From NCBI GenBank assembly GCA_964016885.1, contig OZ024740.1, forward strand, positions 63,984,001 through 64,048,000: 64,000 nucleotides of DNA, given 5' to 3'. Shown here in pieces: positions 1 to 64,000 of the stretch (position 1 is the stretch's first letter; each line of letters begins with the position of its first letter). This DNA comes from Eledone cirrhosa. Its lineage: Eukaryota. Position numbers and translations under genes: made by a program. A model generated the notes under the pieces. The model saw nothing but the letters and a program-made list of their open reading frames with translations. It was not told the DNA's origin and ran no database searches.

Positions 1-3000
1 TCCTAATGGACTCTATTCTAATCGCTCTTTTCAGAGCAAACCACCACTTGTTGTTGACGATGGCCCCCGTCAACGCTCGCTTAACTAGTTCGCTAATCCG
101 GTTTCTGTAGGCCTTGCGCGCTGGTAAGGACGCGTTTAACTTCCAGTAGCCCGGTCTTCGTCTATGAAGCCTATTTAAGTCAATCACACAGATCACGAAT
201 TTGTGGACCGTGTAGCTGACTATCTTGAATTGTGGACAGCCTATGCTAGACCTATCTATTTGCCTACAAAATACTCTATCTAGATATGATCTGGATGACC
301 CGATGCTGTTTGTCCAAGTCCACACTGGTACATTCGGGAAATCCACCTGTCAGACAGTTCAAAACGCCTGAGCAGGTTGGTGAGGCTCTTACACCCTCCT
401 CCCCTATCCGCTAATCCCACACAGTCCCAGCGTGCATCTAAGATCCCGTTCCAGTCGCCCACTAACACTAAAGAGCGGGACGTTCCAAGAAAGGTCTCCA
501 GAAGCCGGAAGAAATCAGGCCGCCCTGTTCCTGTCGGGGCATAGACGGCCACTAGCCCGAAAGCTTGCCCGTCTCCGCTGCTCACGTCCAGCACCACCAA
601 CTTAGCTTCTGGGTCCAGGAAGATGGCCCGTATGGCGAGATCCAAACCTCTCAGAAAAAGCACAGCGACTCCTCCCTCCGATCCAGGACGGCTGGGAGAT
701 GCGTACACATCGTAGCCGCCGAAGATCGGTGCGAAGGCCCGTGCTTCGGAGATTCTGGTCTCGCTGATGATCACTACTTCTATGTTTCGTGACCTGAGGT
801 CGTTGAGAAGGTGGCCCTGCTTCCATGACGACCCCAAGCCACGCGCATTTATGCTGCCTATTCTGAGTGAGGTCGTGTTGAAATGGAGTGGAAAAGATGG
901 GAAAGACCACTTACCGTACTTCTCGTAGAGGAAGGATGGGTTCTCCATCCCTTTCCACTTGATCGTCTGGTGAAGGGACCGTTGAATCGGCCCTTCGGCT
1001 GGTCGTCGGCTCTTCTGTGAGTATATCCGAATATACTCTCCGGTTGAGTGTCCCTCCTAGGTCTCTGAAATCACCAACTGCGTTGGTGAATTTCGTTTTA
1101 ATGTTTGTGTATTGTTTCTGTGCTATTCTTACCAGTCTTATGTTCGTTGGTGTTTTTATTGGTGCTGGTATTATGTAGTGGTGCTGTGAAATGTCTGTGT
1201 GTTCAATTATGTAAGTCATTAGTTTCTTGTTGTGTGTATTTATTGCCGTGCATTTCTTTTTCTGGGGGTGGGGTGGGGTTCTGCTATTTTTTTGTCGTTG
1301 TTGCTGGGTGTGTCTGTTTTGTTGTTGTGTTTGCGATGTTGGTGCTTGTGGTGGTGGTGTTGAAGGTGTTGTTGTTGGCGGTGGGGTTGCCGCCGGTGGT
1401 GATGGTGGTGCTAGTGTGGGTGGTGATGGTGTTGGTGGTGTTGCTGCTGTAAGTCTCTTTGCAGTAGCCTTTACCCTTTTTTTCATTTCTTCCCTCCATT
1501 TTCGAAGGCGACGATGCGCTGCTTCTGCGTTTGTGCCTTCTTGCGACCTTTTGCCATCCATCTCCCACCTCACACTCCATGTCCGATTCTGTGAGGTCGG
1601 AGAGGGGTACCAGCTCCACTCTTTCACTTGTCCTTGTTGGTGATGGTTGCAGTGGAGTCTCTGTTGCAGCTGCAGTTGGTATTACTGTTGTTGTTGTTAA
1701 TACTTCCACTGCTGCTGCTGTTCTTGATTTCCGTGGCGTGGGTATGGGTGCCACGGACCTATACTTCCTGCTTGCCGCCTGTCCTGTTGCTGGTAGCAGT
1801 GGAGCCGGTATCGGAAGGAGGGGGGTTTTCTCCTTTCTCAAGTTCTTCTCATTGCAGAAGGCACTGAGGTGAGTCTTCGATCCACAGCGAGAGCATTTCG
1901 GGCGTTTGCCCTCAACACTTATGGGCAGTTGAGTGCCGTTATCGAAGTCTATTACATCCGGTTGGTTTGAATTAACATCTCAATGGAGGTGCCTACCCAA
2001 TCTTCTCGTACTTTTTTCTGTACTTGCAGTACAGTTGTTTTGTCCTCGATTCCGACAAGGACAAACGTGGCCAGCCAAGAAGGGGCCATCGGGGGGGGGG
2101 GGACGGACGGACGGACGGACGGACGGACGGACGGACGGACGGACGGACGGACGGGGGGACGTGGGTCAGTTTGACCCTCACAATTTTTTGCCGGCAGTAG
2201 GAGGGCACCAACACCATTTCCTCGCTCCTTAGAGTCACTAAGGATTGAGTCTTTGCCTCCTGGGGTGTGGAAAGCATGTCCACGGTGGCACATATTTCTT
2301 GCCTCGGGTGATATGCGTTTTCCGCTGCCACACAGACCCTAAGGCTTTTTGTATTTGAGCCTCTGTGGCTCTTTCAACCCTACGTGATTTTGTGCTTAGT
2401 GTACGGTTCGTAACAGTACAGTGCTGTTGGGTTTCGAAAAATTTTTCGGCTGCCTTGCAGATTGCTCGGTGTCCGGTTTTTGTCACTATCATCTTTGCTT
2501 CCTGTAATTCCTCAATTGTTATAAGGATGGTTTCCAGGTTCTTTGCGATACCTGTAAACGAGATTGGTTTTTCTTTCTTGTTGTTGTTGTTGTTGTCGTC
2601 AGAGCTGCTGTTACTTTTGTTGTTGCTGCTGGAACTACGACCGCTGCCGCCGCTTTTGCTGTGGTTGTTGTTGTTGTTGCTGCTGCTGCTGTTGTTGCTG
2701 TTGCTGCTGCTGTTGTTGTTTATGCTGCTGCTGATGTTGTTGCGGCTGCTACTAGTGTTTTCCTTGTCACTGTCGCTGCTGCTGCTGTTATTACGGCTGC
2801 TGCTGCTATTCTTCATGACGTCAGACGAATGAAATGGCTTTCCGTATTTACCGCACACATTTTTCGTCGTTGTCGTCGTCGTGGGGAAATGTTCCACGGA
2901 ATGCACGTTCTCTTGGTGAAATCTACCAGAAACTATATTTTCTTTTTCTTTACTGGCGTCGCTTGCGAAAGAGGCGACACCACATTTAGAGAAGGGAGGG

Positions 3001-3305
3001 AGAGAGACAATCTTCTCTCTGATGTAGTGACGATTGAGGAAGAAGACGGAATGAGTGGGAGTGACTTGTGAAAATTCTTTTTGTAGCCATGTTTTTTTTG
3101 GGTTTAAAATGAATATTGGGCACAAAACCCCAATAAGCGGTTATTTAACCCTGAAGGGCCAAATAACGGACAGAAAAACCCCTCTCACGAAGAGGAGGGT
3201 GTTTTTATGTACAATTTGATTAAAGTTTTAAACAATTTACAATTGTTATAGCGGTTAAAAATGACTATAACTTACAGAACCGAGCCTCCGTCAACCATGG
3301 CATTC
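1..3305 (-). mobile_element. Tx1/L1-clade non-LTR retrotransposon, copy A (5' half; runs off window start)
   Basis: Colinear with copy B at about 6.12 kb period. Broken ORF1 with CCHC knuckle (CSRCGSKTHLSAFC). APE endonuclease motifs (SINARGL, ISETR, AVYAP, VGDWN). A 7-nt deletion near 345 relative to copy B frameshifts ORF2. Confidence 0.92.
280..875 (-). pseudogene. APE endonuclease domain of Tx1 ORF2 (copy A), frameshifted, start codon ACG instead of ATG
   Basis: Translation LRIGSINARGL...ISETR...VAVYAP...LVGDWN; compared directly with copy B 6447-7016. Confidence 0.88.

Positions 3306-3347
<42 letters not shown>
3306..3347. repeat. (AAT)n microsatellite separating Tx1 copies A and B
   Basis: Perfect AAT run between the 5' end of A and the 3' end of B. 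Confidence 0.97.
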
Positions 3348-3349
<2 letters not shown>

Positions 3350-3597
3350 TTTCTTTATTAACCACAAGGGTTTACATAAAGTAGACATTAAGGACAGTGC
3401 AGGACAATGCAGGACGGTACAAATGGGCATTTCTGCATGTAAAAAACAAAAACAGAGGATGTAACAAAAAATAACAATGAAAAATTCCCCAATAGGGGGC
3501 AGACTTCGGAGGGACATTTGTGGAGAAAGCCCAGTAAAAAGCCACAATGACCCTGACCACCAAGGCAAGTGCCCTCTCCCAGTTTTCCACCTTTAAT

Positions 3598-5772
3598 TTA
3601 CAGATATATACTCAGAGTAGGCCCATTCACTCGGGCCATTCTTGCTTCTCTCACCCATCTTTCAACAAAATGCTGGGAAGAGAGCACTTCCCTCTCTACT
3701 CTGATTTTCCTTTTCAAATGAAATTTGAAAAAGTCAATCAGAGCATCACCGAAGAGGTAAGTGCTCGTCTTCAGCCCTTTCAAACGTGTCCACCATACTA
3801 TCTCTTTCACCATGGCCACCAGGCAGATAAAAACTGCCTGCCCTTCCCGGCTAAAGGAGGAGGGCGGGGCAATCCTCACGATGGACTCAGATGATAGCCG
3901 GATCCGTCCTAAACGCGACAGCAGGTGTTCGACATAAACCCACAAGTCAGCAATTTTGGGACACTGGACGAGTGCGTGCATGACGGTTTCGTCGCCCTGC
4001 GCGCATCTCGGACATGCCCGGCTGACGGCACCTCCATGCCTGTAGAGTTTATCCCGAACTGGCAAGGCTCCTCGGTAGCACTGCCAGGCCAGAGATTTCT
4101 GGAAGTTGTCCATAGGCCCTGGCCCGAAACTGCTTCCGAAGAGATTGGCTAGTTGATTTTCGTCGACGCCTAGAGTTTCCCAAAGTACGTCGTCGCTCTT
4201 CCCCTCCACAAATCCTCTATAGAACGCCGAGGTGGAGTTTCCACCGATCACATTGCCCGATTGGTCGAGGGCTGTGAGCGCCTGAAGACATTCCAGTCTC
4301 CAGGCGCTCCCTCTCGGTCTTCGCTTGATCCAGGACTGCAGCTCCGTCAAGGAAACGAGCTGGGGAAAAACGCGTCTAGCAAACGGCGACCACACCTGAT
4401 CACCGTCGAGGAAGAGGTGGAGATGTTGTAGCCTGAGCGCGTGCCTGCGCATCATCAGCCATGGCATGCCCAGCCCTCCACGTAGCGGGTGTTGACAACA
4501 GATGGACCGCCTGACCATCGGAGCACGTCCCTTCCACAAAAAGCGAAAGAGCAAACGCTCCAGCGCAGTCAGGCTAGGCTTAGGACAAGGTACGACGGTT
4601 AGGCGGTAGCAGATGACAGACGCGATGTACGCGTTAGCCACCTCCGCTCGACCTTTCAGGGATAGCTTCCTCTCCGCCCATTTCTGGGTGAGAGAAGCCA
4701 CCCTGCTCGTCACCTCGTCCCAGTTTTTGTCCGTCTGGAGGTCCGGACCGAACCAGACCCCTAGCAATTTAACCGGTCCGTCCGTCCAGCGCCCGACGAC
4801 GCTGTTGGACGGCATGGACCTGCCTATCCAGGTGCCGAGCTGCAGGCCCACTGGCTTTTCCTGGTTGATCATTGCTCCTGTCACCGCTTCGTATTCTCTT
4901 AGTGTAGTGCCGATCGCCTCGATGTGTTTGGCGTTCGACACCACTACGGTGACATCGTCCGCATATGCTGACACGGATCTTCCGCATCCTAGTTCGTGCG
5001 GGACTCCCCTCAACGTCTCCAGTTTGTGCAGTAATGGCTCGAGAGTCAATACGTACAAGAGGGACGAGAGGGGACATCCTTGGCGGACCGAGCGCATGAT
5101 GTTGAACGGTTCCGACAGGTGACCGTTCACTCTCACCACAGAGCAGATGTCGCTGTGCATGACAGCGATCCAGCCTCTGAAGACGGGCCCATAGCCAGCC
5201 GCCCTCAGGACTGCCGCTAGGTAATGATGGTCGACCCTATCGAAAGCTTTCGACTGATCTAAATTGATCAAGGACCCACCCGTGCCAGGTTCCTTAGCTA
5301 CCCTCTCTATGATGTATCGCATGAGGTGGAGGTTGTCGTGGATGGATCTGTCGGGAATGGCGCATGTCTGCGCCTCTCCAACCAGACCACCAACGACAAG
5401 CGCCAACCTCTTTGCTAGCACCTTGGCCAAAATCTTGAACTCTGTGTTTAGCAGAGTTATGGGCCGGAAATTGTCTATGTTATCCCCCTTGTTCGGATCC
5501 TTTCTCAGCAGTGCCACCGCTCTTCGGCTCACAGAACTGGGAATTCTCCCGTTCTGTTGCCAGTTGCAGTAGACGTCCACCAAGAGGCCTCCGAACAAGT
5601 CTGGCATCTGTACGTAAAGTTCATAGGGCAGACCATCCAAACCAGGCGATTTACCCCTTGTGCAGCCAGTCATTGCCTCCCTTACTTCAGCGGCTGTTAT
5701 CGGCTTTTCGCAACACTTCGCCTCAGTGGCCGAGAGCCGCGGCAGTCCGTCGAGGTAGACACTAAAATCCAT
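3598..5772 (-). CDS. Tx1 ORF2 reverse transcriptase + zf-RVT portion (cut off from APE by a stop and a frameshift)
   Basis: KSPGLDG, FRPITLLN, LDQSKAFDRV, VRQGCPLS, YADD, and CPRC..ETVMHALVQC. Confidence 0.93.
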   Translation of the reverse strand: MDFSVYLDGLPRLSATEAKCCEKPITAAEVREAMTGCTRGKSPGLDGLPYELYVQMPDLFGGLLVDVYCNWQQNGRIPSSVSRRAVALLRKDPNKGDNIDNFRPITLLNTEFKILAKVLAKRLALVVGGLVGEAQTCAIPDRSIHDNLHLMRYIIERVAKEPGTGGSLINLDQSKAFDRVDHHYLAAVLRAAGYGPVFRGWIAVMHSDICSVVRVNGHLSEPFNIMRSVRQGCPLSSLLYVLTLEPLLHKLETLRGVPHELGCGRSVSAYADDVTVVVSNAKHIEAIGTTLREYEAVTGAMINQEKPVGLQLGTWIGRSMPSNSVVGRWTDGPVKLLGVWFGPDLQTDKNWDEVTSRVASLTQKWAERKLSLKGRAEVANAYIASVICYRLTVVPCPKPSLTALERLLFRFLWKGRAPMVRRSICCQHPLRGGLGMPWLMMRRHALRLQHLHLFLDGDQVWSPFARRVFPQLVSLTELQSWIKRRPRGSAWRLECLQALTALDQSGNVIGGNSTSAFYRGFVEGKSDDVLWETLGVDENQLANLFGSSFGPGPMDNFQKSLAWQCYRGALPVRDKLYRHGGAVSRACPRCAQGDETVMHALVQCPKIADLWVYVEHLLSRLGRIRLSSESIVRIAPPSSFSREGQAVFICLVAMVKEIVWWTRLKGLKTSTYLFGDALIDFFKFHLKRKIRVEREVLSSQHFVERWVREARMARVNGPTLSIYL

Positions 5773-7016
5773 CCCTCTACCCGGCCCCCCGCTGCCCCCA
5801 ACAGCTGAGCGAAGTGTCGCTGAAAAGCTTCACACATTTGCCCGGGATCGAGTAGCATGCGCCCGTCGTGGTCCACCAAAGACCGGATCGTGGCTTTGAT
5901 GCCACGACGCGCCTCCGCCACTCGGGCCCATTGAACGGCTTTCGTCCCCTCGTGTCTGAGAGCACGCACCCTAGCTCTGACAACGCAGCCTTCGTGCTTT
6001 GCATTGAAGAATTGGTCAAGGGCCAATTTCGCCGCAAGCACGTCGGTCGCAATGCCTTTGCTAAGCACCTCGTCTAATTTTCTAACTAGTTCTCCCTCTG
6101 CTCTATTTTTCTCTATTGCTAAAGCCTTACTAAACCTAATCGATTCTATTCTAATCGCTCTTTTCAGAGCAAACCACCACTTGTTGTTGACGATGGCCCC
6201 CGTCAACGCCCGCTTAACTAGTTCGCTAATCCGGTCTCTGTAGGCCTTGCGCGCTGGTAAGGACGCCGTTAGCTTCCAGTAGCCGGGTCCTCGTCTATGA
6301 AGCCTATCTAAGTCAAGCACACAGGTCACAAATTTGTGGTCCGTGTAGCTGACTATCTTGAATTGTGGACAGCCTATGCTAGACCTATCTATTTCCCTAC
6401 AAAATACTCTATCTAGATATGATCTGGATGACCCTATGCGGTTTGTCTAAGTCCACATTGGCACATTCGGGAAATCCAATCGGTACCTGTCAGACAGTTC
6501 AAAACGCCTGAGCAGGTTGGTGAGGCTCTTGCACCCTCCACCCCTATCTGCTAATCCCACACAGTCCCAGCGTGCATCTAAGATCCCGTTCCAGTCGCCC
6601 ACTAACACTAAAGAGCGGGACGTTCCAAGAAAGGTCTCCAGACGCCGGAAGAAATCAGGCCGCCCTGCTCCTGTCGGGGCATAGACGGCCACTAGCCTGA
6701 AAGCTTGCCCGTCTCCGCTGCTCACGTCCAGCACCACCAGCTTACCCTCTGGGTCCAGGAAGATGGCCCGTATGGCGAGATCCAAACCTCTCAGAAAAAG
6801 CACAGCAACTCCTCCACCCGATCCAGGACGGCTGGGAGATGCGTACACATCGCAGCCGCCGAAGATCGGTGCGAAGGCCCGTGCTTCGGAGATTCTGGTC
6901 TCGCTGATGGCCACTACATCTATGTTTAGTGACCTGAGGTCGTTGAGCAGGTGACCCTGCTTCCATGACGACCCCAAGCCACGCGCATTTATGCTGCCTA
7001 TTCTGAGTGAGGTCAT
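5697..7016 (-). pseudogene. Tx1 ORF2 APE endonuclease and linker (premature TAG at 6447-6449)
   Basis: APE motifs. TGG in copy A is TAG here. GPGYWKL linker motif follows. Confidence 0.9.
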
Positions 7017-7051
7017 GTTTAAAATAGAGTGGAAAAGATGGGAAAGACCAC

Positions 7052-9240
7052 TTACCGTACTTTTGGTAGAGGAGGGATAGTTTTTACATCCCTTTTCACT
7101 TGATAGTCTGGTGAAGGGACCGTTGAATCGTCCCTTCGGCTGGTCGTCGGCTCTTCTAAGAGAATGTCTGAATATACTCTTCGATTGATGGTTCCTCCTA
7201 GGTCCCTGAAATCACCAACTGCGTTGGGGAATTTCGTTTTAATGTTTGTGTATTGTTTCTGTGCTATTTTTAGCAGTCTTTTGTTAGTTGGCGTTTTGAT
7301 TGGTGCTGGTATTATGTAGTCCTGTTGTGAAATGTCTGTGTGTTCAATTATGTAAGTCATTAGTTTCTCGTTGTGTGTGTTTATTGCCGTGCATTTGTTT
7401 TTCTGGGGGTGCGGTGTGGTTCTGCTATTTTCTTGTCGTTGTTGCTGAGTGTGTGTGTTTTGTTGTTGTGTTTGCGATGTTGGTGCTTGTGGTGGTGGTG
7501 TTGAAGGTGTTGTTGGCGGTGGGGTTGTCCCCGGTGGTGATGGTGGTGCTGGTGTGGGTGGTGATGGTGTTGGTGGTGTTGCTGCTGTGGGTCTCTTTGC
7601 AGTAGACTTTACCCTTTTCTCATTTCTTTCCTCCCTTTTCAAAGGCGACGATGCGCTGCTTCTGCGTTTGTGCCTTCTTGCGACCTTTTGCCATCCATCT
7701 CCCACCTCACACTCCATGTCCGATTCTGTGAGGTCGGGGAGGGGTACCAGCTCCACTCTTTCACTTGTCCTTGTTGGTGATGGTGGCAGTGGAGTCTCTG
7801 TTGCAGCTGCAGTTGGTATTACTGTTTTTGTTGTTAATACTTCCACTGCTGCTGCTGTTCTTGATTTCCGTGGCGTGGGTATGGGTGCCACGGACCTATA
7901 CTTCCTGCTTGCCGCCTGTCCTGTTGCTGGTAGCAGTGGAGCCGGTATCGGAAGGAGGGGGGTTTTCTCCTTTCTCAAGTTCTTCTCATTGCAGAAGGCA
8001 CTGAGGTGAGTCTTCGATCCACAGCGAGAGCATTTCGGGCGTTTGCCCTCAACACTTATGGGCAGTTGAGTGCCGTTATCGAAGTCTATCACATCCGGTT
8101 GGTTTGAATTAACATCTCAATGGAGGTGCCTACCCAATCTTCTCGTACTTTTTTCTGTACTTGCAGTACAGTTGTTTTGTCCTCGATTCCGACAAGGACA
8201 AACGTGGCCAGCCAAGAAGGGGCCATCGGGGGGGGGGGGGGGACGGACGGACGGACGGACGGACGGACGGGGGGACGTGGGTCAGTTTGACCCTCACAAT
8301 TTTTTGCCGGCAGTAGGAGGGCACCAACACCATTTCCTCGCTCCTTAGAGTCACTAAGGATTGAGTCTTTGCCTCCTGGGGTGTGGAAAGCATGTCCACG
8401 GTGGCACATATTTCTTGCCTCGGGTGATATGCGTTTTCCGCTGCCACACAGACCCTAAGGCTTTTTGTATTTGAGCCTCTGTGGCTCTTTCAACCCTACG
8501 TGATTTTGTGCTTAGTGTACGGTTCGTAACAGTACAGTGCTGTTGGGTTTCGAAAAATTTTTCGGTTGCCTTGCAGATTGCTCGGTGTCCGGTTTTTGTC
8601 ACTATCATCTTTGCTTCCTGTAATTCCTCAATTGTTATAAGGATGGTTTCCAGGTTCTTTGCGATACCTGTAAACGAGATTGGTTTTTCTTTCTTGTTGT
8701 TGTTGTTGTTGTCGTCAGAGCTGCTGTTACTTTTGTTGTTGCTGCTGGAACTACGACCGCTGCCGCCGCTTTTGCTGTGGTTGTTGTTGTTGTTGCTGCT
8801 GCTGCTGTTGTTGCTGTTGCTGCTGCTGTTGTTGTTTATGCTGCTGCTGATGTTGTTGCGGCTGCTACTAGTGTTTTCCTTGTCACTGTCGCTGCTGCTA
8901 CTGTTATTACGGCTGCTGCTGCTATTCTTCATGACGTCAGACGAATGAAATGGCTTTCCGTATTTACCGCACACATTTTTCGTCGTTGTCGTCGTCGTGG
9001 GGAAATGTTCCACGGAATGCACGTTCTCTTGGTGAAATCTACCAGAAACTATATTTTCTTTTTCTTTACTGGCGTCGCTTGCGAAAGAGGCGACACCACA
9101 TTTAGAGAAGGGAGGGAGAGAGACAATCTTCTCTCTGATGTAGTGACGATTGAGGAAGAAGACGGAATGAGTGGGAGTGACTTGTGAAAATTCTTTTTTG
9201 TAGCCATGTTTTTTTTGGGTTTAAAATGAATATTGGGCAC
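7052..9240 (-). pseudogene. Tx1 ORF1 (gag-like, CCHC knuckle, Asn/Ser- and Pro/Thr-rich tracts), frameshifted
   Basis: ORF pieces 9240-9049, 9022-8354, 8447-8130, 8409-8089 and 8092-7052; CX2CX4HX4C motif. Confidence 0.82.
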
Positions 9241-10349: not shown

Positions 10350-13300
10350 CATTTTTGGGGCCCTTTCTGCCTGTGTGTTTGTTTGTTTATGTGTGTTCGT
10401 ATACAGCGTGGTGATAATGCCACACAAGGGCCAAGTGGGATGGCGGATCCACAGATGGCTATGTAAACATACATTCGCCAATCCTCGATAAGAGTGTTTA
10501 AATATCGAACATAAACAGTTCGAATAACGGTGAAATGGAGACTAGAACGTCATGTGACAGACTCTCACCCAACAGGTGCCCCCTGGCTCAGCAGCAGGAA
10601 CCTGACTGTCAACCAAATACTGCTGATGTTGGAGGAAGGAGAAGAAGGAAAGGGGCCAGAACCAACTGGACGAAAGAATTGAATAGAACTGTTATGCAAT
10701 GCTACCTGAAAAGTAACCCCAAAGAGAGGGGCTACAGGAGACGGATGCATAACATCTGGAACGAGATTGGTTTATTTAAATTAGATGAACAAAAATTGGC
10801 CGGGCAGGCTCGGGTAATAAGAACTAATGGGTGGATAAGCGAGCTGGAACTGGAGGAACTGAGCAGAGAGAATGGCTTGGAGATGGCGGGTGTAGTATGC
10901 CAGACAAGCGAGCCGGTGGGAAATGAAGGTGAGGAGGTCCTGAGAACGGAGGAACCACCCGAAGCAGACAATGATCTGAGTACTGAGATAAATAATAGCT
11001 GGAACAGAGATACGGCCACTGAGGAGATGAATGCTGACGGGCTAGGACAAGATTCGGTTGACATCCTAAATTTAGTGGTAGATGAATTGAACAATGATAG
11101 TGGGAGACCTATGAACCTAAGATTTGTAGACAGGAAAAAGTTAAAAGAAACAACAGCTAAGGTAAACAAAGTCATCCCATACCTTGAGGCGAGGAGCCTT
11201 CACCAGTGCAACAATATCCTCAGAGCAACAGCAAATACGGTGAGGAAACTACTTGGTATAAAAGCGAGAGGAAACAACAGACAAGAAAGAGCAGAGCCGT
11301 GGTGGAAGAAGCGACTGAGTGGGCAAATCGGGGAAATGAGAAATGACATAGGAAAGCTTGAGTCACTACTGAATGGGACACTAAAAAACATAGGCACTAA
11401 AAATAGACTGGAAATAAAATACAAAACTAGGAGCAAAAAGCTAAATATTATCATAGAGGAATTGAAGCAACGCATTGTAGCAAAGAGTGCAAAAATCAGG
11501 CGATACGAGAACAGAGTCAGTCAGTATAAACAGAACCGCATGTTCGACAACAACCAGAAATGCTGTTTGGACAGCTTGAGGGCAAAGAAAGAGGCAACGA
11601 CTTGATCCCTGGGGCGGAGCAAACTAAAACATTCTGGAGAGGAATATGGGAGCAGGATGTTAGACACAATGCCCAGGCAGGGTGGATTGAGACAGTACAG
11701 AGGGAGATCGGTGGGCAGGCACAGCAACAGACTGATTTGAGTATCACAGTTGAAACTCTTAAGGGGCAAGCCAAAAAACTAACCAACTGGAAATCACCAG
11801 GCCCAGATGGTGTGCAGGGGTATTGGATTAAACATCTAACATCCCTCCACCCGAAGCTGACGGCCATGTTCAATGACTGCTTGGTGTCGGGTGAGGTGCC
11901 AGAGTGGTTGACAAAAGGTACCACAGTTCTGATAATGAAAGACTGAATCAAGGGTAATGATGCTACCAACTATAGACCTATCACATGTCTGCCCGTAATG
12001 TGGAAACTGTTGACGAGCATTGTGTCTGAGGAAATCTACCATCACCTCCACACAAACAACTTGTTACCGGACGAACAGAAAGGATGCCGAAAGAAGTCAC
12101 GTGGTACAAAGGACCAGTTGCTTATTGATAAGATGGTAATGGGGAATTGCAGGAGGAGACACACTGATCTTGCCATGGGATGGATAGACTACAGAAAGGC
12201 ATTTGACATGGTGCCTCATTCCTGGATCACCAAAAGCCTGGAGATCTTCAGGGTGGCAGATAACATCAGACAGTTGCTAGGCAGGAGTATGGGGTCCTGG
12301 GAGACAGAGTTGACATCAACTGGAGTATCCTTGGGAAGCGTGAAGATCAAGAGAGGTATCTTCCAGGGAGATAGCCTGTCCCCTCTGTTGTTTGTCCTTG
12401 CCCTGATGCCCTTGACCATTATGCTGCGAAAAGTGAGAGCAGGATACAAGTTGGGAAGGGGAGAGCTTACCATCAATCACCTCCTCTTCATGGACGATCT
12501 TAAGCTCTTCGGGAAAAGTGAGAAGGAGTTGGATGTGCTTGTTGACACTGTCCATATTTTCAGCAGTGATATATGTATGCAGTTTGGTATTGGTAAATGT
12601 GGAGTCATTGTGATGAAGAGGGGTAGGTTGAGCAGAAGTAACGGGATCCAGATACCAACAGGTGAGATGATAAAGGAAATTGACTCTGAGGAAGGATACA
12701 AGTATTTGGGCGTTCTGGAGGCTGATGGCATAAAGAACAAAAAAATGAAGGAATTGTTAAGAACTGAATACATTCGGAGAGTAAGGAGCGTATTGAAGTC
12801 ACATCTGAACAGCAGAAATGCCATAAGCGCAGTAAATTCCCGAGCTGTGTCTATTATTAGGTACAGTGCGGGAATTCTGAGATGGAATGTTGCTGAACAG
12901 AAAGAAATGGATAGGAAGACTAGGAAGCTATTGACTATCTACAACATGTTCCACAAGAGGAGTGATGTCGATAGACTCTACCTAAGGAGATCTGAGGGTG
13001 GAAGAGGTCTTATCAGCATAGAGGACTGTGTTCAGATGGAGAAAAACAACCTATACAAATACGTGACCTATAGTAAGGAGCCAATGCTCAGAACTGTACT
13101 GAAGGAGGGGACAGTAGGCCAGGGGATGTCCAGGGAGGAAATAACATCAAGGAGGAAGAGCAGCCTTAAGGGAAAACCCCTTCATAGTACCTTCTTTGAG
13201 AAAACTGAATTTAGAGATCCACAGACATGGAACTGGTTGAGAAGAGGAGACCTCAAAAAGGCTACAGAAGGAATGCTAATGGCTGCGCAGGAGCAGGCCC

Positions 13301-13709
13301 TCAAAACGAAGTGGTTGAAGCACCATATCTACAAGGAGGAGGCTAGCCCACTGTGCAGGATCTGTGGAGAGAGAGAGGAGACTGTGGCTCACATTGTGTC
13401 CGAGTGTAAACACCTAGCCCAGACCCACTATAAGGGCTGGAGACACGATGTGATGGGCAGGGTGATCCACTGGCACCTATGCAAACTGGAACACAATAGA
13501 CCTGACCTGGTGGTTGTGGACAAAGAAAAAAGATCGTGCCTGATTGTGGATGTGGCCTGCCCGTTCGACACGAGAGTGCAAGAGAAGGAGAGGGAGAAAA
13601 TTAACCGATACCAGGACCTAAAGTGGGAGGTGAAAAGGATTTGGAACTGCCATGAAGTCAAAGTGATCCCGATTGTCATAGGCGCACTGGGGACTATCTC
13701 AAAAAGTTT
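10350..13709 (+). mobile_element. R4/Dong-clade non-LTR retrotransposon (single ORF, RT + restriction-like endonuclease), disrupted; 5' boundary approximate
   Basis: N-terminal WTKELN..GYRRRMHNIW. RT motifs [41 protein letters not shown] zinc motif, RHD and RPDL..DV RLE motifs. Frameshift near 11560, in-frame TGA at 11944. Confidence 0.9.
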
Positions 13710-13716
13710 AGCATGA
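11998..13716 (+). CDS. R4/Dong RT and RLE portion (carries a 111-nt in-frame deletion at 13485)
   Basis: 572-aa ORF with RT and RLE motifs; deletion inferred from alignment with 13804-14474. Confidence 0.88.
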
Positions 13717-50404: not shown

Positions 50405-52881
50405 TTATTGTTCATTTAGCTTGGGTTTGAATTTATCAATAAAATTCTTTTCTTTGATTTTTCTCTTGATTTCACTTGGGCTGTGTAATTTGTAGAATGG
50501 GAATATTATAAATATTCCCTGACCACATGTTGCCAGGTGGCCGCTTAGGGGTATCTGACGGACATTTGGGTCTCTGATTTGTTGACGGTGTACCCGTGCA
50601 CGTTCCGATAGTGCATTTCCAGTTTGACCGACATATAGTTCTTCACAATTCGGGCATTTAATGCAGTAAATTAGATTTCTGTTTTTGCAGTTCATATTTG
50701 CATTTGGGAATATTTTTCCAGTTTTTGTTTTCATATATTGACCGGCGTGTATGGATTGACATGTGCCGCATCGATTATCATTGCATTTAGATACAGTGAA
50801 TGATTGGTCTTTGTTGTTAAGGTCAAACTTTGCTTTTGTTAGCAATTGCTTCAAATTTTTTGGCTGTCTTTTACTAAGAGTCAAAGATCGATCTGTGATT
50901 AAGCCTTTTAATTCATTACTTTGAGCAATGATCGGTAGGTTTGCTTTGGCAGTGTTGAAGATATTCTGGTGACATGGGTTGTGTGTCATTATAAATGGTA
51001 TGACCAGTTCTTGGTTTCTTCTTCCTTGGGTTGTTCTAAGTTGTTGTATAGGTATTTTTATAGCCCGCTGTATGCCATTTTCTATAAGTAGAGATGGGTA
51101 TTTTTGTTTGAGCAAAAATTCTCTTAGTTCTGTTAGGCGTTTGTACCTGGTATTCGTATCTTCTACAATGGTACAAATTCTTCTGGCTAGGCAGTATGGG
51201 ATGTTGCGTTTTGTATGAGGTGGATGGCACGACTTAAAATTCAGATATTGATGGGTGTCTGTGTGTTTATAATATATATCCGTGGTAATGGTGGTGTCGT
51301 TTTTGATTATCATTATATCTAGGAATGGTAAGTTGGTCCTACTCATCTCTTTTGTGAATTGGAGAGATGGGTGTAGGTTATTCAGGAGGATATTGAACTC
51401 ATCCAGAGTATCTAGAGATTCTGTCCAGATGATGAAACAGTCGTCAAGGTATCTGTCTCTTCCAAGATTTTTCAATGTACTTTCTAAAGTCAGTACTATA
51501 TTTTTCCTCTATTTCTTGGTAGAGTTGTTGTTCTAAGTATCCCATTACAGAGTTCGCGTAAACGGGAGCAAACTTCGTTCCCATCGCTGTACCTCTAATT
51601 TGGATGTAATTCTTTCCATTGAAGAAGAAAGTGTTGTTTTCCAGAATAAGTTTAACTGCGTCTAATATAAATGGCGCTGTGAATCTAATGGGAATCACTT
51701 CTCTATGTTTTTCCATCCAGTATTTAACCGCCTTTATTCCTAAATCATGTGTAATGTTGGTGTAAAGGCTTACCACATCAAAACTGAGTAGAAGTGAATT
51801 CGTTTCCGTGGTTTTGGGAAGATGGGACAGGAAGTCGATATCATCCCAGATGAAACTGGGTATGTGAATACATAGTGGTTTCAAAATAATGTCAACAAAA
51901 TTGCTTAGACGGCGAGTGGGGCATGTTGGACCAGCTATAATAGGTCTAAGTTTTAAGTCTTTAGTGTGTAATAATTTAATGTACTCACTGTTTTGTTCTC
52001 TTACTGCCAGTTGTATTTCTTTTGACTTGTGAACTTTCGGTAGGCCATACAGGTTGCTGGGTTTCGGCTCAAAATTGGTGATGTAGTCTCTTTCCTTATC
52101 AGTAAATGAGTTGTGGTATTTTGAAGCCAGATTGTTGATCTTCTTCATGATGTTGTGGTCTATATTTGACGGTATTTCATGATAGAATGTTGTGTCTTTC
52201 AGTTGTTCCTCAACCAAATCCTTGTAGTATTCAGTATCCATTATAACAACTGCACCCCCTTTATCTGCTTGTTTAATTATTATTGTTTTATCATTTTGTA
52301 TACGTTTAAGTGCAGACATTTCTGATTTGTTAATGTTTCGCCTAACATTAGTAATATGTCTAAGAGGAAATTTAGACAGGATGTCAATGTATTGGTCGAG
52401 ATAGATATTTCTTCCTTTTGGCGGAGTGAAATTTGATTTATTCTTTACTAGTGATTCATCACTCTCATTATTTTTATCAGCGAAGAATTCTACAAGACGT
52501 AATTTTCGACAGAATTCTTGGGTATCCTCCTTCAGTTCTTGGTGGTTGACTGTTGGAGTCGGTGTGAATTTCAGTCCTTTTGACAGAATTTGCATTTCAT
52601 CATTGTCAAGATCTCTTTTAGATAAATTAATTATTTTAGGATCTACGTGTACAGCTGTTTTGGGTATGTTTCCTCCTGGAGTTTTTCTTTTTCCGGTTTT
52701 TGTTGTCCGACGTTAAAAAATGGATTTTTCTCTGTTCAGGATTTATATTTCTGTTGGTGTTCGCTTGATGAACTTTTGGTCGTGATATTATATTTGGTTT
52801 CGTTATGTATTTTGTCCTATTTTTGGTATTCTGTATATTATTTTTCTTCCTGTTAGCATTATTTTTAACAAAAATACCCAT
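50405..52881 (-). pseudogene. Penelope RT + GIY-YIG endonuclease ORF (frameshift ~51460, 5' truncated)
   Basis: ORFs 52595-51444 and 51475-50405 together give the full RT-EN order. Confidence 0.92.
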
Positions 52882-52985
52882 CTCTACTTATAGAAAATGG
52901 CATACAGCGGGCTATAAAAATACCTATACAACAACTTAGAACAACCCAAGGAAGAAGAAACCAAGAACTGGTCATACCATTTATA

Positions 52986-53570
52986 ATGACACACAACCCA
53001 TGTCACCAGAATATCTTCAACACTGCCAAAGCAAACCTACCGATCATTGCTCAAAGTAATGAATTAAAAGGCTTAATCACAGATCGATCTTTGACTCTTA
53101 GTAAAAGACAGCCAAAAAATTTGAAGCAATTGCTAACAAAAGCAAAGTTTGACCTTAACAACAAAGACCAATCATTCACTGTATCTAAATGCAATGATAA
53201 TCGATGCGGCACATGTCAATCCATACACGCCGGTCAATATATGAAAACAAAAACTGGAAAAATATTCCCAAATGCAAATATGAACTGTAAAAGCAGAAAT
53301 CTAATTTACTGCATTAAATGCCCGAATTGTGAAGAACTATATGTCGGTCAAACTGGAAATGCACTATCGGAACGTGCACGGGTACACCGTCAACAAATCA
53401 GAGACCCAAATGTCCGTCAGATACCCCTAAGCGGCCACCTGGCAACATGTGGTCAGGGAATATTTATAATATTCCCATTCTACAAATTACACAGCCCAAG
53501 TGAAATCAAGAGTAAAATCAAAGAAAAGAATTTTATTGATAAATTCAAACCCAAGCTAAATAAACAATAA
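52986..53570 (+). pseudogene. Inverted duplicate of the Neptune linker + GIY-YIG domain
   Basis: 194 aa identical to the C-terminus of 50405-51475 except three residues. Confidence 0.93.
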
Positions 53571-57665: not shown

Positions 57666-60600
57666 GAATAAACCATTGACAAAACACATGTAAATAAACA
57701 ATTCTAGTATTAGCATGAAGCCATACTTTTTGAGGGAATATACACGACTAAAGTTTCCCTTGTATATTACTGGTATTTATATTATGAATACCGGAAGGAT
57801 GAACGGTAAAGTTTACCTCAAATCGACTAAATTTTTCCCTTGTATATTCTTTTCTGAAGAATGAAAGGCAAAGTTTACCAAACTTAGAATTTATATGTAA
57901 ATATCAAAATAGAACTAATTTCTTATTCAATAGTGATTTCTCATTGTGACAGTCTTTTACTGATTGTTCTTCTGTATTTGATTTAAGTTTTCCTAATATG
58001 TAAAGGTTAATAATGTAAGTAAAGTTTTAAAATGTGCAGTCTTTTTAACTTCTTTACTTCTTAAGTTTCTTCCTCAAATTATTAGCTTTTTGTTCCTCAT
58101 TTTATCATTTTTATCAATTTTTTCACATTTTCCTAGGAATATCTTAAAATGTATCTGAAGTGTTTCTATGCCTTCGAAATGAAGTAAGAGTGCGTTGGTG
58201 CCTCATTTGAGTAGGCAATGCAACAGTAGACAATAAACAACACATGAATACTATGCAGAATTCTCTGAAAAATAGATGATTAATGATAGTGGCAATGCAC
58301 ATGCACATCAAACAATACAATGATTAAATTAATGTAAATGTAAATTCTAAAAAATGGTAATATCTAATGATGAATTCGATAATCCGAAATATTATTATTA
58401 CCGGTACATCTATTATTATCGTAAGGTATTTTAAGAAAAGATGAGAGAGAATAGCTCAGTAAAAAATTGGCAACATTCGAAATGAGAATTAAGGTAAAAG
58501 ATGTAGATGTAAAAAGAAAACAACAAACAAAAAAAAAACAGAACAAAACAAAACAAACTACCTATTCTATTATCCTTTTAGTCTGGTTAGTTTCACAGAA
58601 GATGCATGATAAGTAATGCAGAAACGACGTTGTGTGCAGATTACAGACACAGTCTATAAAATGAAGTTGAACCTAGTTTTATAAACAGTTTTGGATTGCT
58701 TTAAAAAAACAACAAAAAAACAAAAATAACAATCAAAATACATTTTGCATCTTTACCTTATTCTGTCCCTTGAAAAGGAAATCAGTGGTTTGCTACTAAT
58801 TTCAAAATAATACCCCCCCCCCCCCCCCCAAAAAAAAAAACAGGAACAGCTATAACAACACAAAGGAAAAGGAATGAGCCGACTGGCGGATCAGGCTGAA
58901 AAAAAACAAAACTGTTTCCTTTGGGATTTCTATTTCTCATAGTATCTGCAGATCGCAAATCCTGGTGGGATTTGAACTCAGAATGCACAACGCCAGAGCA
59001 GGTACCGCAAAGCATCCTGTCCGGTTATAACAATGTCGCCAACCGACAACACTCCTGCGCTGGTACTTTATTTTATCCATGTCAAAAGGATGAGAGATAA
59101 AGTTGACTTCAATGGGGTAGGAACTCTTAACACAGAAAAGTCAGAACTCTAATCCGAGGCCTTTAATCTGATGTTTTAACCAATCTGCCAATTCACAAAT
59201 ACCAATAAGAAAGCAAACAAAGAAATGAAACTAAGTCATATAGAAAATATAAGTATCCATATTATGATTCAATAAAAAACAAACTCATTGAGGCCGGTGG
59301 AGAATAAATAGATTGATATTGGACAGTGTTTACGTTTTGTGACAATGTGTGGCACCAGAAATATCCAAAAATTTGGTTCAGTTACAACATAGTTAATTTT
59401 ATAGCACAACATAACATATGTTTGAACAAGCCAAAAATATAAAAAAATTGCAATAGAAGTAAACAAATATTTAACGAAAATGTTCAAAGATATAACTTGA
59501 TTTCTTTTGTTATTTATTATTGACTTAACCCACATAAGTTATGTTCGGTATCTTCTTTATCTACAACACACTCACACACACACGCACAAATATATATGAT
59601 GTTCCTTACTGACTGATAAGTAAGCCAAATATTTATACAATGTGACCATACCCTCAAACAGATACACATACATACGCACTCAGAAATTAAGATACAGATA
59701 CACATACGCATGCAAATATTCTCTTCGTGTTTATATGCAAAACGTAATATATCAGTTATAGTTTAGGCATCCGTATATCGATTTAGTGCTATACAGATAC
59801 TTGATATATATATTGAATATCCGTAGGATGTGCAAACGAGCATCATTCACATTTCTATATATTCTGGTTGAGTGAGTGTCACTGGTGAAAGATTAACAAA
59901 TCTTGAAACAGCGTTGTCAGGTATTCTCGACAGTACTGACAACTTATATATTCACAGAGCAAAATACAGAAAATATTTTCTTTACTAAAACATATTTTCT
60001 TTTATAGCGAGGCTACCCATATATTTATTGTATAAAAATGCATAGTATGTGTTTAAATATGTTCTCATATTATAATTAAACGACGGTGTCTTAGTGCTGT
60101 TGCCAATTATCTTCTACAGGCAGTTCAGCTTTCAAATCACACAACCGCTTTCTAATCACGTAGTAATGTTTATATATATATATATATATATACATATATA
60201 TCATTCACACACGGTATTGTGTGAATAATATTCTTAAGGTCAACTTTTCCCAACGACAGCCACTTCTAGGACTTGCCACGAATTCAGTTCTCAACCAAAT
60301 TTGATCAGGTTTTTTGCACTAGAATGGACTCATCCCAGGCTACATTTTGGTATAAGGAAATTGAAATTTGGGTCAGTAGAATAAAAAGTTATGCTAAAAT
60401 ATGTGTGGTCAAGTAGTGGGGGATAAGGCCCCTCATTGACTTTGACTCATCATAACTTTTTAAATTTCGAATATAATTTCATGCTACCTCTCTCACTAGA
60501 TACAACTCGATAAGCTGAATCGAAATTTGTCAATATTGAAAAGATTGGTGCCATAGAAATAGAGTTGTGTGACTTTAAGTGACGAAATCAGATGAAGAGT

Positions 60601-60672
60601 AACGCTAAGGGACATAACTCTAGTATAAATCCATCGTAGCTGTACTAAGTAGTTTCCCTTAATTATAGTTAT

Positions 60673-61711
60673 TCACAAAAGGCTTGATGAAATTTTTGGA
60701 GATCCCCCCAAAATGGCATATCCTTTTTGAAAAATGAATCTTCTTTTGTTTGGTGATTTGATGCAATTGCCACCTGTAAACGAAAAACCAGGATTTTCTA
60801 GAATTTCATCATATGATGCCAAAAGAACAGAAATTGGCATTAGTGGGCATTCATTGTGGAAATACTTTAAATATGATGAGCTAACCATTAATGAGACAAA
60901 AAGAAGACAAAGACAACTATGTTGATATTTTGGGAAGAATTAGGATTGGTTCCCCATCAGACTCTGATATTAGCATTCTTCAAAAAAGATGCCTATTTCC
61001 TGATAGAAAAGCATCTGTTGAAGAAATTGCTAAAAAATTGATTGAATTGTATTCTATTCCTGAATTAAAATATTTGTATGCATTTTACCTTTGAATGAAG
61101 TTGTTGATGAGTTGAATAATGAAATGATTAAAAAATGAAACATAAATGCAGTGAAACTTGCTGCAAAAGATTCTGGTATGAGACAAGTAAATGGAAGAAA
61201 AAAGAAAAATGTTGAAAAAGGCAAAAACAAGAAAACTTCTGATACTGCTGGACTAGAAACTTTGCTAAATGTTGGAATTGGAGCAAGAGTAATGTTGTAA
61301 CGAAACATTGATGTAGATCAAGGCTTATGCAATGGTGTTATTGGAACAGTTATTGAATTAATTGGGAATGGAAGCAGTGTTGACAAAATTTTGGTGTCTT
61401 TTGATACCAAAAAGGACAAACCCATTTCCATTGGAAGAGTTCAAGCAGCCTATGAAATTTCTCCTGGTGTTTTTGTCACCCGAACACAATTTCCATTGTC
61501 TCTTGCTTACTCTATAACAATTCACAAATCACAAGGAATTTCTGTGGATAGAATAATTGCTGATTTAGGAAATCAGATATTTTCTGATGGTCAAGCTTAT
61601 GTGGCTCTTTCAAGAGCCAGAAAACATTGCAATGTGTATCTCTGTGACTTTGATCCAAGATCATTGATCATGGTTGACAAATCTGCATGGGAAGAGTACA
61701 ACAAACTATGA
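60673..61711 (+). pseudogene. PIF1-family (SF1B) helicase, motifs III-VI, with stops and frameshifts
   Basis: FGDLMQLPPV, ELTIN.RQ, GARVML*RNIDVDQGLCNG, RTQFPLSLAYSITIHKSQG, GQAYVALSR. Confidence 0.9.
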
Positions 61712-61859
61712 GCTAGTACTGGAAGAGCAGATTTGCCTCCATTGTCACCTTGCAGGAAAAAGCCTCCTTGCATGGCAAATGCTTCTAGCATGCCCAACTT
61801 AAAAGACTTAATTTAGAAGGAAATTCAAACCAACCTGCCAACAAGAAGAAAAGAAATGA

Positions 61860-62791
61860 AAACAGCCAAACTTTAATCCCTAAACATCAATTGATCAACC
61901 AAAGAAATGCTTGTTTTGCAAATTCAGTTGTGCAATCACTGAATCAATTGCCTGAATGTGTAGAGTATTTGGATAATTTTAACAACATGAATGGAGTACA
62001 TCAAGAATTAAGCAATATCATTTTTAATAATCATAATAATGTCCCTAACTTAAGAAGAATAATTGGAGGAAGATTTCATGATGGAAATCAGCAATGTGCT
62101 CATGAATTTTGGAAAGAACTCTCTCTACATTTGGACTTGGTATTTAGAGAAAAACTTCAATTTATTCAAACTGATCATACTAGATGCATCCGATTGCATC
62201 AAACAAATTGCCAAGCTTTAAATAACAACGTTTGCAATTGTAATTCAAGACTTCCATTTCAAATAAAAGAGGATTTGATATTAAATCCTATTAATGGCAC
62301 ACAGCAATTTAAATCTCTACTTTCAACAACAAATACTTTGACTAAATACTGTGATACTTGTTCTGAAAATACTGAGCATCAAATAACTTCAAGAATTGAA
62401 TTTACTAACGATTTCAAATATCTTGTCATATCAATTAGTAGATTTTTGATTAATAATGAAGGAGAACAAAGAATTAATTGTGATATTATGAACTTTAGCT
62501 AAAAGAAGCAGCAAATATATGGCACAAATTTCACATTAACAGCTGCTATTCTTCATGAAGGAGTATTATCTACGGCAGGCCATTATACTTGTCTGGTAAA
62601 AAGTGGTGCTGAAAATTGGGATGAAATTAGTGACAACATTATCAAAAGATGGCACAATAAATGTCCTCCTAAGTTAGCTAATGTCGTTGTATTATTTATG
62701 TTTCCATAAATAATTGTTTCTACTTTAGGCACAAGGGTAATTGCTGGCCTTGTGCCTAAAGTAGAAACAATTATTTATGGAAACAATTTAG
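61860..62791 (+). pseudogene. Ubiquitin-specific protease-like (peptidase C19) domain; one internal stop, hairpin insertion near the end
   Basis: Cys box LINQRNACFANSVVQSL, QQCAHEF, C..C zinc ribbon. After the in-frame TAA at 62500: AILHEG..AGHYTCLVK..W.EISD (His/Asp boxes). Confidence 0.82.
62699..62785. repeat. Perfect 38-bp-arm hairpin made of a SINE family 1 tail plus inverted target DNA
   Basis: 62699-62736 is the reverse complement of 62748-62785; 11-nt loop. Confidence 0.92.
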
Positions 62792-62799
62792 ATTTTTGA

Positions 62800-62970
62800 A
62801 TTTGGACTATTGATCTTGGACTACCAACTTATAATTAAGACTACTGTTAATTCTGGACTACTTCATTTTGTTTTGGACTAGTTGCTGATGATTATTTTTG
62901 ACTAAATGCTGATTCTGGACTACTTAATTTTATTTTTGACTACTTAATTTTATTTATTTTTGACTCAGTT
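62800..62970. repeat. Degenerate ~15-23-bp minisatellite (TGGACTA core)
   Basis: Recurring t(g/t)gacta motif. Confidence 0.7.
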
Positions 62971-64000
62971 ATTTTAATTGCTTGTTTTTCTAGCATCTTT
63001 AATAACTTCACTTGTTAAGTTAAACTCTAAATTGACCATTAGAGTATAGTCAATTATAGCTTTGTCTCTATGGGCACACCTGAAGGCGTGTAGTAAGGGT
63101 GTTCAGAAAAGGCAAATGTCTCTATTGATTATATTCTACAGCATACCTTTTCAATTTTAATATTTTGGATTTTATAGAATAATTGAAATGAAAAATTTAT
63201 TTTTATTGATGAAAAAAGGAGTGTAAATGCCTTAGCAAATGGTCAAGGTCATTTAAATAAAATAATTTCCTGCAATGCCTTAAAAAAAGGGGGACTAGAC
63301 CAAAAAATGCGGGCGCATGTGTATTAATATTCTTAAATAATAATAAACCTGGAAAAGTACAGGACAAGTAGAATTAACTCTTGAAATATTGAAGCTGGAA
63401 TTTGAATTTGATGAATTAAATGTACAATAATAAGCCTATGGCATCACACTTAATCACAAGGAGGTAAAGGTTGTTAAGATGGCATGGAACAGGACATTTC
63501 GGTGCAGGCATTTCTGTGCCAGAGTTTCAGCACTGGCATGTGGAATGGTCATTCCTAGCTCTTTCATGGATAGATTTCGAATAACACAAGAATGACCTAA
63601 AGACAACCAAGATAATTTTTTACTTTAATTATTAATTAAATAATTAGAAACGATCTAGAAATCACCTTTATTCATTAGGAATGGCCTAGTTAATCTGTGG
63701 TGCTAATCTCTAAAAGATAGTCTCTGCTTTCCTCATAAGAAAGGAACAGTAATCCAGATTATCAATCAGAATGATATCGCACTTGATCACTAACTTTTCT
63801 TTTTGAAATACAGTTGACTATCTCTAATTGTCACTCAAAGGAACTGTAAAAATGACTGACAATTAGGGAGAGTCAACTGTAATTCGATCTTGACAAATTT
63901 TGGCTTAATTTTTTAAAAATGAAATTAGATTAATAATTTTAATATGATGACAATTTATGCAAAATTTAGCTCATTACTTTTTACTATTAATTTCAATTAA

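What the first reader, a model, noticed from the sequence alone, without database searches (positions are those of the whole stretch)
60673..62791. Helitron-type PIF1 helicase followed by a USP/C19 deubiquitinase-like domain
Seen: after helicase motif VI, a short linker (with stops and one frameshift) leads into an intronless domain with USP Cys box (N..NAC.ANS..Q.L), QQxAHEF, His box (HEG....GHY) and W...SD, so all catalytic residues are recognisable. Known: Helentron/Helitron2 proteins are described with OTU proteases and AP endonucleases; I do not recall C19 USP as an established cargo. Inference: a rolling-circle transposon lineage captured a deubiquitinase as a C-terminal fusion, perhaps to stabilise its protein or remove chromatin ubiquitin marks.
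Basis: partly seen in the sequence, partly recalled or inferred. Interest (0 to 1): 0.72.

Follow-up and report, generated by a model that had tools for sequence, protein, structure and literature searches.

The report
Broken Helitron transposase ending in deubiquitinase
This is a broken copy of a rolling-circle jumping gene whose intact relatives end their transposase in a ubiquitin-protease (USP) domain, which likely shields the transposase from being tagged and destroyed by the host; the pairing was already listed in a 2024 survey.

Summary
Observation confirmed. The C-terminal half of a PIF1 helicase (60671-61708) runs into a USP domain (Pfam UCH E 5e-12; USP fold) with Cys, His and Asp present. 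This copy is dead: three frameshifts, five stops, no Rep, and a later 79-nt repeat insertion that makes the 38-bp hairpin.

The fusion is real. A near-identical sequencing contig bridges helicase and USP in one frame, and intact relatives encode DUF6570-Rep-helicase-USP as one ORF (L003, Dysidea proteins). These are HLE2 (Helentron/Helitron2-type) elements. The USP shows purifying selection, and relatives carry OTU or pseudo-USP+USP/OTU at the same place.

Novelty is limited. HELIANO (PMC11417382, 2024) lists Pfam UCH as stable HLE2 cargo, though as a separate ORF, and this scan already found the fusion in this and other genomes. Function is untested. The likely role is removing ubiquitin from the transposase while it is covalently bound to single-stranded DNA.

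The parts
60203..60670 (+). Probable left (5') end region of the element, joined straight to mid-helicase. Rep and helicase motifs I-II are missing (internal deletion). A 9-bp-stem hairpin lies at 60203-60226.
   Evidence: Multi-contig cover in X4, X6 and X8 begins in bin 60181-60307 and pieces start at 60209-60246. Hairpin -7.0 kcal/mol. No Rep match in the window by tblastn with Rep-bearing relatives. The exact terminus is inferred.
60671..61708 (+). C-terminal half of a PIF1-family RepHel helicase (end of motif II to motif VI), with frameshifts near 60890 and 61070 and stops at 60728, 61136, 61298
61709..61884 (+). Basic linker with TGA 61709 and a frameshift near 61796 (7 nt shorter than the X1 contig)
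61885..62791 (+). USP (peptidase C19, Pfam UCH) catalytic domain: Asn 61897, Cys 61912, His 62581, Asp 62632; nonsense TAA at 62500; original stop TAG 62789-62791
62691..62779 (.). Later 79-nt insertion with a 10-nt direct repeat (62691-62700 = 62770-62779), made of the end of a very high-copy repeat plus its inverted copy. It produces the perfect 38-bp inverted repeat 62699-62736/62748-62785 and is not a Helitron terminus.
   Evidence: joint 62690->62770 in X1; 62735-62775 matches four other places in the window
62792..63290 (+). 3' non-coding part of the element with short degenerate tandem repeats (62811-62965). The right terminus was not located; cover in X4 continues past 63600.

Best explanation
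This is a dead, internally deleted copy of an HLE2 rolling-circle transposon whose intact relatives make one RepHel protein ending in a USP domain, which likely works in cis to strip ubiquitin from the transposase. Shown: identity as an HLE2-type RepHel, the single frame, the USP fold and catalytic residues, selection on the USP among copies, and OTU or a second USP at the same position in relatives. From the literature: RepHel is modelled to form a covalent 5'-phosphotyrosine link to single-stranded transposon DNA, and protein adducts on ssDNA are ubiquitylated (RFWD3, TRAIP, RNF4) and degraded by the proteasome or SPRTN. Inferred: the tethered USP removes those chains, so the complex survives long enough to unwind, circularise and insert the element. 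Odds: about 0.93 for identity and fusion, about 0.8 that the ancestral domain was an active deubiquitinase, about 0.5 for self-protection as its main job.
For: Fusion: X1 record 5 (61506-62470) spans motif VI, linker and Cys box with gaps of 7+24 nt that give one frame; the three window stops checked are sense codons there and 0 of 21 codons checked become stops. 12 of 120 listed helicase hits carry UCH/UCH_1, all in the top 40; all 12 scanned have it after the helicase. L003 is one 1841-aa ORF DUF6570-Helitron_like_N-Rep-PIF1-UCH. Dysidea P0170 and P0178 have the same order. Octopus bimaculoides XP_052827946.1 has motif VI plus USP in one model. Catalysis: Cys+His+Asp complete in 10 of 18 related domains. 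Selection: 15 of 22 family-level differences in 62380-62690 are at third positions (p 0.0009), 13 synonymous, none in the His or Asp codon. Exchangeability: C-terminal OTU in 8 of 30 proteins scanned and in L001 and L002. Literature: Helitron VTD domains are active K48/K63 DUBs, and the authors suggest protection from proteasomal degradation (PMC9741609); phosphotyrosine model (PMC4778049); ubiquitylation of adducts on ssDNA (PMC9289515).
Against: No activity or substrate was tested. 16 of the top 50 helicase relatives show no USP, and several of these have no C-terminal DUB at all (P0044, P0050), so it is not essential. 6 of 18 related domains have Cys->Ser, two of them (P0006, P0009) as the only USP in proteins that lack their N-terminus, which fits a ubiquitin-binding role. 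HELIANO says UCH lies in a separate ORF. Only 15 of the 17 letter differences in X1 record 5 were listed, so a stop there is not strictly excluded. TAA 62500 is also present in about half the laid depth in X2 and X4, and P0121 ends at the same place. The Rep of this exact family was not seen.
Confidence: 0.55

Rival explanations
1. The fused USP is active but acts in trans on host proteins at the donor or target site (histone H2A/H2B ubiquitin, PCNA, RPA), opening chromatin or steering fill-in synthesis.
For: Same fusion and catalytic evidence. Best fold matches include USP12 and USP46, recalled as histone DUBs, but at only 17-20% identity, like all USPs.
Against: Unrelated DUB folds occupy these elements (USP and OTU; VTD, PMC9741609), which fits a generic chain-removing need better than a specific histone substrate. 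Characterised Helitron VTDs prefer K48/K63 chains.
Confidence: 0.25
2. The domain serves mainly as a ubiquitin-binding module (targeting RepHel to ubiquitylated forks or chromatin) or as a polyprotein-processing protease, rather than as a deubiquitinase.
For: Cys->Ser pseudo-USPs are retained in 6 of 18 domains, in a sponge-type clade upstream of a live USP or OTU.
Against: The window's lineage and 10 of 18 related domains keep the full triad. Where a pseudo-USP occurs in full-length proteins, a second DUB domain follows.
Confidence: 0.12
3. Chance juxtaposition: a helicase fragment next to a processed host USP pseudogene, or a one-off gene capture in this copy.
For: In the window the two domains are in different frames.
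Against: One frame in X1; fused ORFs in many relatives; element USPs separate from 31 cellular USPs (SH-aLRT 97, quick tree).
Confidence: 0.02
4. An endogenous giant-virus fragment (Nucleocytoviricota encode both PIF1 and short USPs).
For: The nearest ESM Atlas clusters by features are Nucleocytoviricota USPs (0.95); viral USP folds match.
Against: 0 of 80 viral loci match beyond the helicase or hit the USP profile. The top helicase hits carry Helitron_like_N and DUF6570. Viral USPs are 9-20% identical, no closer than cellular ones at 13-20%.
Confidence: 0.02

Closest known systems
UCH-bearing HLE2 elements, subgroups c and d (HELIANO, PMC11417382; read: passages, sections 22-23 whole, supplement searched for UCH/PF00443; figures not seen)
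   Same: Pfam UCH PF00443 as stable cargo of HLE2 elements; DUF6570 as HLE2 marker, present in the window's intact relatives.
   Different: The paper places UCH among 17 domains 'encoded in different ORFs'. That list also includes EN, which PMC4067079 describes as fused, so the statement is loose. Subgroups c/d come mostly from lungfish and axolotl. Here the USP is in frame at the C-terminus, with named relatives in an octopus and a sponge. Whether this family falls in c/d was not tested.
Helentron VTD and OTU deubiquitinases (PMC9741609; passages read)
   Same: Deubiquitinase domains inside Helitron ORFs; VTDs shown active on K48/K63 chains; same protective hypothesis.
   Different: Different protease class (USP). 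No AP endonuclease follows the helicase here. No USP is mentioned for Helitrons in the passages seen.
Canonical Helentrons (PMC4067079; passages read)
   Same: HLE2-type Rep signature (F/Y-w-R before motif 2) in relatives L003 and P0018.
   Different: USP sits where Helentrons have the AP endonuclease. Motif 2 reads RGAPH or RGLQH rather than RGSPH. No convincing subterminal inverted repeats were found.
Cellular USPs (USP12/46/14/36) and giant-virus USPs
   Same: Fold and catalytic residues.
   Different: Only 9-20% identity; a minimal domain of about 270-300 aa; no donor subfamily identifiable.

Membership tests
USP / peptidase C19 (Pfam UCH) | Profile match above the curated cut-off | tested here: met
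   46.4 bits vs 23.9, E 5e-12
USP / peptidase C19 (Pfam UCH) | Cys box, His box and Asp of the triad | tested here: met
   Asn 61897, Cys 61912, His 62581, Asp 62632
USP / peptidase C19 (Pfam UCH) | USP fold | tested here: met
   pTM 0.83; TMq 0.73-0.79 to USP12/14/46
USP / peptidase C19 (Pfam UCH) | Ubiquitin isopeptidase activity | not testable with these tools
   Needs Ub-PA, Ub-AMC or di-ubiquitin assays
HLE2 (Helentron/Helitron2 group) | PIF1 helicase grouping with RepHel proteins | tested here: met
   Best hits; the window row lies in the 56-row RepHel group, SH-aLRT 95, quick tree only
HLE2 (Helentron/Helitron2 group) | HUH Rep and DUF6570 upstream in the same ORF | tested here: inconclusive
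   Absent from this deleted copy; present in relatives L003, P0170, P0178; Rep without DUF6570 in the truncated P0018
HLE2 (Helentron/Helitron2 group) | Subterminal or asymmetric inverted repeats, end hairpins, TT target | tested here: inconclusive
   Hairpin at 60203-60226; only two weak 11-13-nt inverted pairs; right end not found
HLE2 (Helentron/Helitron2 group) | Interspersed multi-copy family with deletion derivatives | tested here: met
   Many contigs in X4, X6, X8; joints 60502->63234 and 60625->61230
Canonical Helentron (subgroup b) | AP endonuclease fused after the helicase | tested here: not met
   USP follows directly
HELIANO HLE2 subgroups c/d | Phylogenetic placement with lungfish/axolotl elements | not tested
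   Those sequences were not in hand
Endogenous giant virus | Viral relatives with the same gene pair or viral neighbours | tested here: not met
   0 of 80 viral loci with the USP

The most novel reading that the evidence does not exclude
One HLE2 clade has replaced the Helentron endonuclease with an exchangeable C-terminal deubiquitinase cassette (USP, pseudo-USP+USP, pseudo-USP+OTU, OTU; USP also captured separately behind the endonuclease in L036). This would be a built-in counter-defence against host DNA-protein-crosslink repair acting on the covalent RepHel-ssDNA intermediate, making ubiquitin-dependent adduct removal an unrecognised anti-transposon barrier.
Probability: 0.3. Interest if true: 0.7.

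Novelty: new member of a known kind. Interest (0 to 1): 0.3.

Why it matters
The locus itself is a dead repeat. The family corrects one published detail (UCH in a separate ORF): here it is an in-frame tail. Intact natural versions exist (Dysidea proteins of 2548-2795 aa at 94-100% identity; L003), so one can test directly why rolling-circle transposons keep acquiring deubiquitinases. If the enzyme protects the covalent transposase-DNA intermediate, ubiquitin-driven crosslink repair would count as a transposon defence.

Tried and rejected
No whole genome was held, so copies could not be counted directly. A word search with the USP alone for longer proteins found nothing (567 candidates); the helicase query found the fusions. 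The 38-bp hairpin (z -15) was considered as a Helitron terminator and rejected: it is absent in X1, is flanked by a 10-nt direct repeat, and derives from a high-copy repeat. A conserved read-through stop at 62500 was considered because P0121 ends there, and judged unlikely: X8 and X13 mostly read a sense codon and other relatives are open. Giant-virus origin found no support. A scan for viral USP loci with alignment A2 could not run, so the USP tree has no viral rows and origin stays open. The subTIR search gave nothing convincing. No RNA holder listed. The careful helicase tree did not finish; only the quick tree is used. Some of its automatic Cys labels were wrong, so one search was used instead. 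No complex prediction was run.

Full report
Observation. The three-frame translation shows a PIF1 helicase from the end of motif II (60671) to motif VI, broken by frameshifts near 60890 and 61070 and stops at 60728, 61136, 61298 and 61709. A basic linker follows, then in another frame a USP domain with one internal TAA (62500). Pfam gives helicase families on the pieces and UCH at E 5e-12, above its cut-off. Solved-structure sequence hits are USP36, USP15 and USP35, with two lysozyme entries as noise among the 7. The model (pLDDT 84, pTM 0.83) matches USP12/14/46. The catalytic Asn, Cys, His and Asp codons are at 61897, 61912, 62581 and 62632. The rest of the window is repeat-rich, with LINE, Penelope and microsatellite sequence. 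The closest named relative of the USP is an Octopus bimaculoides gene model, so a cephalopod host is likely; this was not established.

Is it one frame? No genome was held, so I laid public contigs on the region. I used 4 of the 20 listed runs in each, six different runs in all. In X1 a near-identical contig (61506-62470, 17 differing letters, gaps of 7 and 24 nt) spans motif VI, the linker and the Cys box. Its neighbour carries indels of 2 nt at both helicase frameshifts. The frame arithmetic puts helicase and USP in one frame. Of 21 codons with listed differences, 3 are stops in the window and none in X1. The table was cut (40 of 723 rows), and 2 of the 17 differences in that contig are unseen. 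X1 and X2 are one sample and may be related to the window's source. TAA 62500 is open in 52 of 119 depth units in X2, 892 of 1651 in X4, and most of X8 and X13.

Intact relatives settle the point independently. Of 1457 helicase hits, 120 were listed; 12 of them carry UCH/UCH_1, all within the top 40. All 12 have it downstream of the helicase (30 proteins chosen by me). With a profile of element USPs, the top 50 split into 19 near-complete USP, 6 partial, 9 ending just after a Cys-box motif and 16 none (11 of the 19 were in the profile). None of hits 51-120 matched. L003 is a 1841-aa ORF DUF6570-Helitron_like_N-Rep-PIF1-UCH. Dysidea-cluster proteins of 2548-2795 aa have the same order with two USP domains and are 94-100% identical to each other; Pfam missed UCH in P0172 but my profile found both domains. 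Of 160 loci fetched, 2 hit the USP profile (L003, L036), and 0 of the 80 viral ones.

What the element is. Relatives carry DUF6570, which HELIANO calls an HLE2 marker, and the F/Y-w-R signature before Rep motif 2 given for Helentrons in PMC4067079. They lack the AP endonuclease. The window row falls in the RepHel group of a quick tree on a long branch. Contig cover in three other organisms starts near 60200 and runs through the USP. Joints 60502->63234 and 60625->61230 show deletion derivatives. This copy lacks Rep, so it is non-autonomous. A 9-bp hairpin lies at the probable left end; the right end and subTIRs were not found. The perfect 38-bp inverted repeat at the USP end is a later 79-nt insertion. 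It is absent in X1, is flanked by a 10-nt direct repeat, and matches four other places in the window. Without it the frame ends at 62791.

Was the USP functional? Cys, His and Asp are complete in 10 of 18 related domains; 6 have Cys->Ser and 2 are truncated or degenerate. Across 62380-62690, 15 of 22 differences typical of X8 fall at third codon positions (one-sided p 0.0009 against 1/3) and 13 are synonymous, while 2 of 6 window-specific ones are. Caveats: 311 nt only, pooled contigs, no correction for transition bias. All 20 element USP rows lie apart from 31 cellular USPs (SH-aLRT 97; 4 of 35 cellular rows were dropped for lack of motifs; long branches; no viral rows). So the capture is old and the donor unknown. 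ESM features point to giant-virus USPs, a lead only.

How it likely works. The Helraiser model has RepHel covalently bound to single-stranded DNA through a 5'-phosphotyrosine while its helicase unwinds the element (PMC4778049, passages). Adducts on ssDNA are ubiquitylated by RFWD3 and others and degraded by the proteasome or SPRTN, and USP7 can counteract this for TOP1 (PMC9289515, passages). I infer that a tethered USP removes such chains from the transposase. Supporting this, different DUB classes fill these elements: C-terminal OTU in 8 of 30 proteins scanned plus L001 and L002, pseudo-USP followed by USP or OTU, and active K48/K63 VTDs (PMC9741609, passages). Against it: many relatives have no C-terminal DUB, pseudo-USPs are kept, and nothing was assayed. 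Action on histones or PCNA (0.25) and ubiquitin binding or self-processing (0.12) remain open.

What is known. HELIANO (PMC11417382; sections 22-23 read whole, other passages, supplement searched; preprint passages) lists UCH/PF00443 among 20 stable extra domains, almost only in HLE2 and enriched in subgroups c and d, and states it is in a different ORF. Figure 7 (position) could not be seen, and the preprint's supplements were not consulted. Six searches showed no paper describing an in-frame RepHel-USP; I read only the papers named here, and the library lacks most subscription journals and Repbase. This scan has noted the same fusion before in this and other genomes; those notes are not independent evidence.

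Verdict. Real, correctly read and mechanistically interesting, but a new member of a catalogued kind. The in-frame position and the exchange of DUB classes are the added details. Interest 0.3.

Noticed in passing
L036:2-1513 and 1294-2382: A helicase-AP endonuclease ORF (Helentron-like) is followed by an overlapping ORF with an intact USP (UCH E 6.6e-38) that groups with cellular USPs rather than with this family: probably a separate capture.
   Followed up: partly
P0021, P0024, P0170, P0172, P0178, P0181; P0032, P0237, P0262: A sponge-type clade keeps a pseudo-USP (Cys->Ser) after the helicase, followed by either a live USP or an OTU.
   Followed up: partly
P0002-P0005, P0010-P0013, P0015: Nine close relatives end shortly after the USP Cys box at a similar position, which may mark an intron in that subclade; 'intronless' may not hold family-wide (inferred).
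   Followed up: no
window 63294-63480: End of a very high-copy repeat with many loose ends at 63294. On the minus strand it reads a short palindrome, then CTAG followed by T, like a canonical HLE1 3' end nested in or beside this element.
   Followed up: partly
window 62691-62779: A 79-nt fold-back insertion of a high-copy repeat end; the inverted arm includes part of the target site, suggesting template switching during insertion.
   Followed up: partly
window 63805-63885: 33-nt inverted repeat, 88% complementary; origin not determined.
   Followed up: no
window 50405-53570: Penelope-like element on the minus strand (RT 51444-52712, continuing 50405-51508 into GIY-YIG) with an inverted second GIY-YIG copy at 52869-53570.
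   Followed up: no
window 280-9220 and 10502-13716: Tandem, partly duplicated LINE copies with endonuclease- and RT-like ORFs, plus another RT-like ORF on the plus strand (read by eye, not scanned).
   Followed up: no
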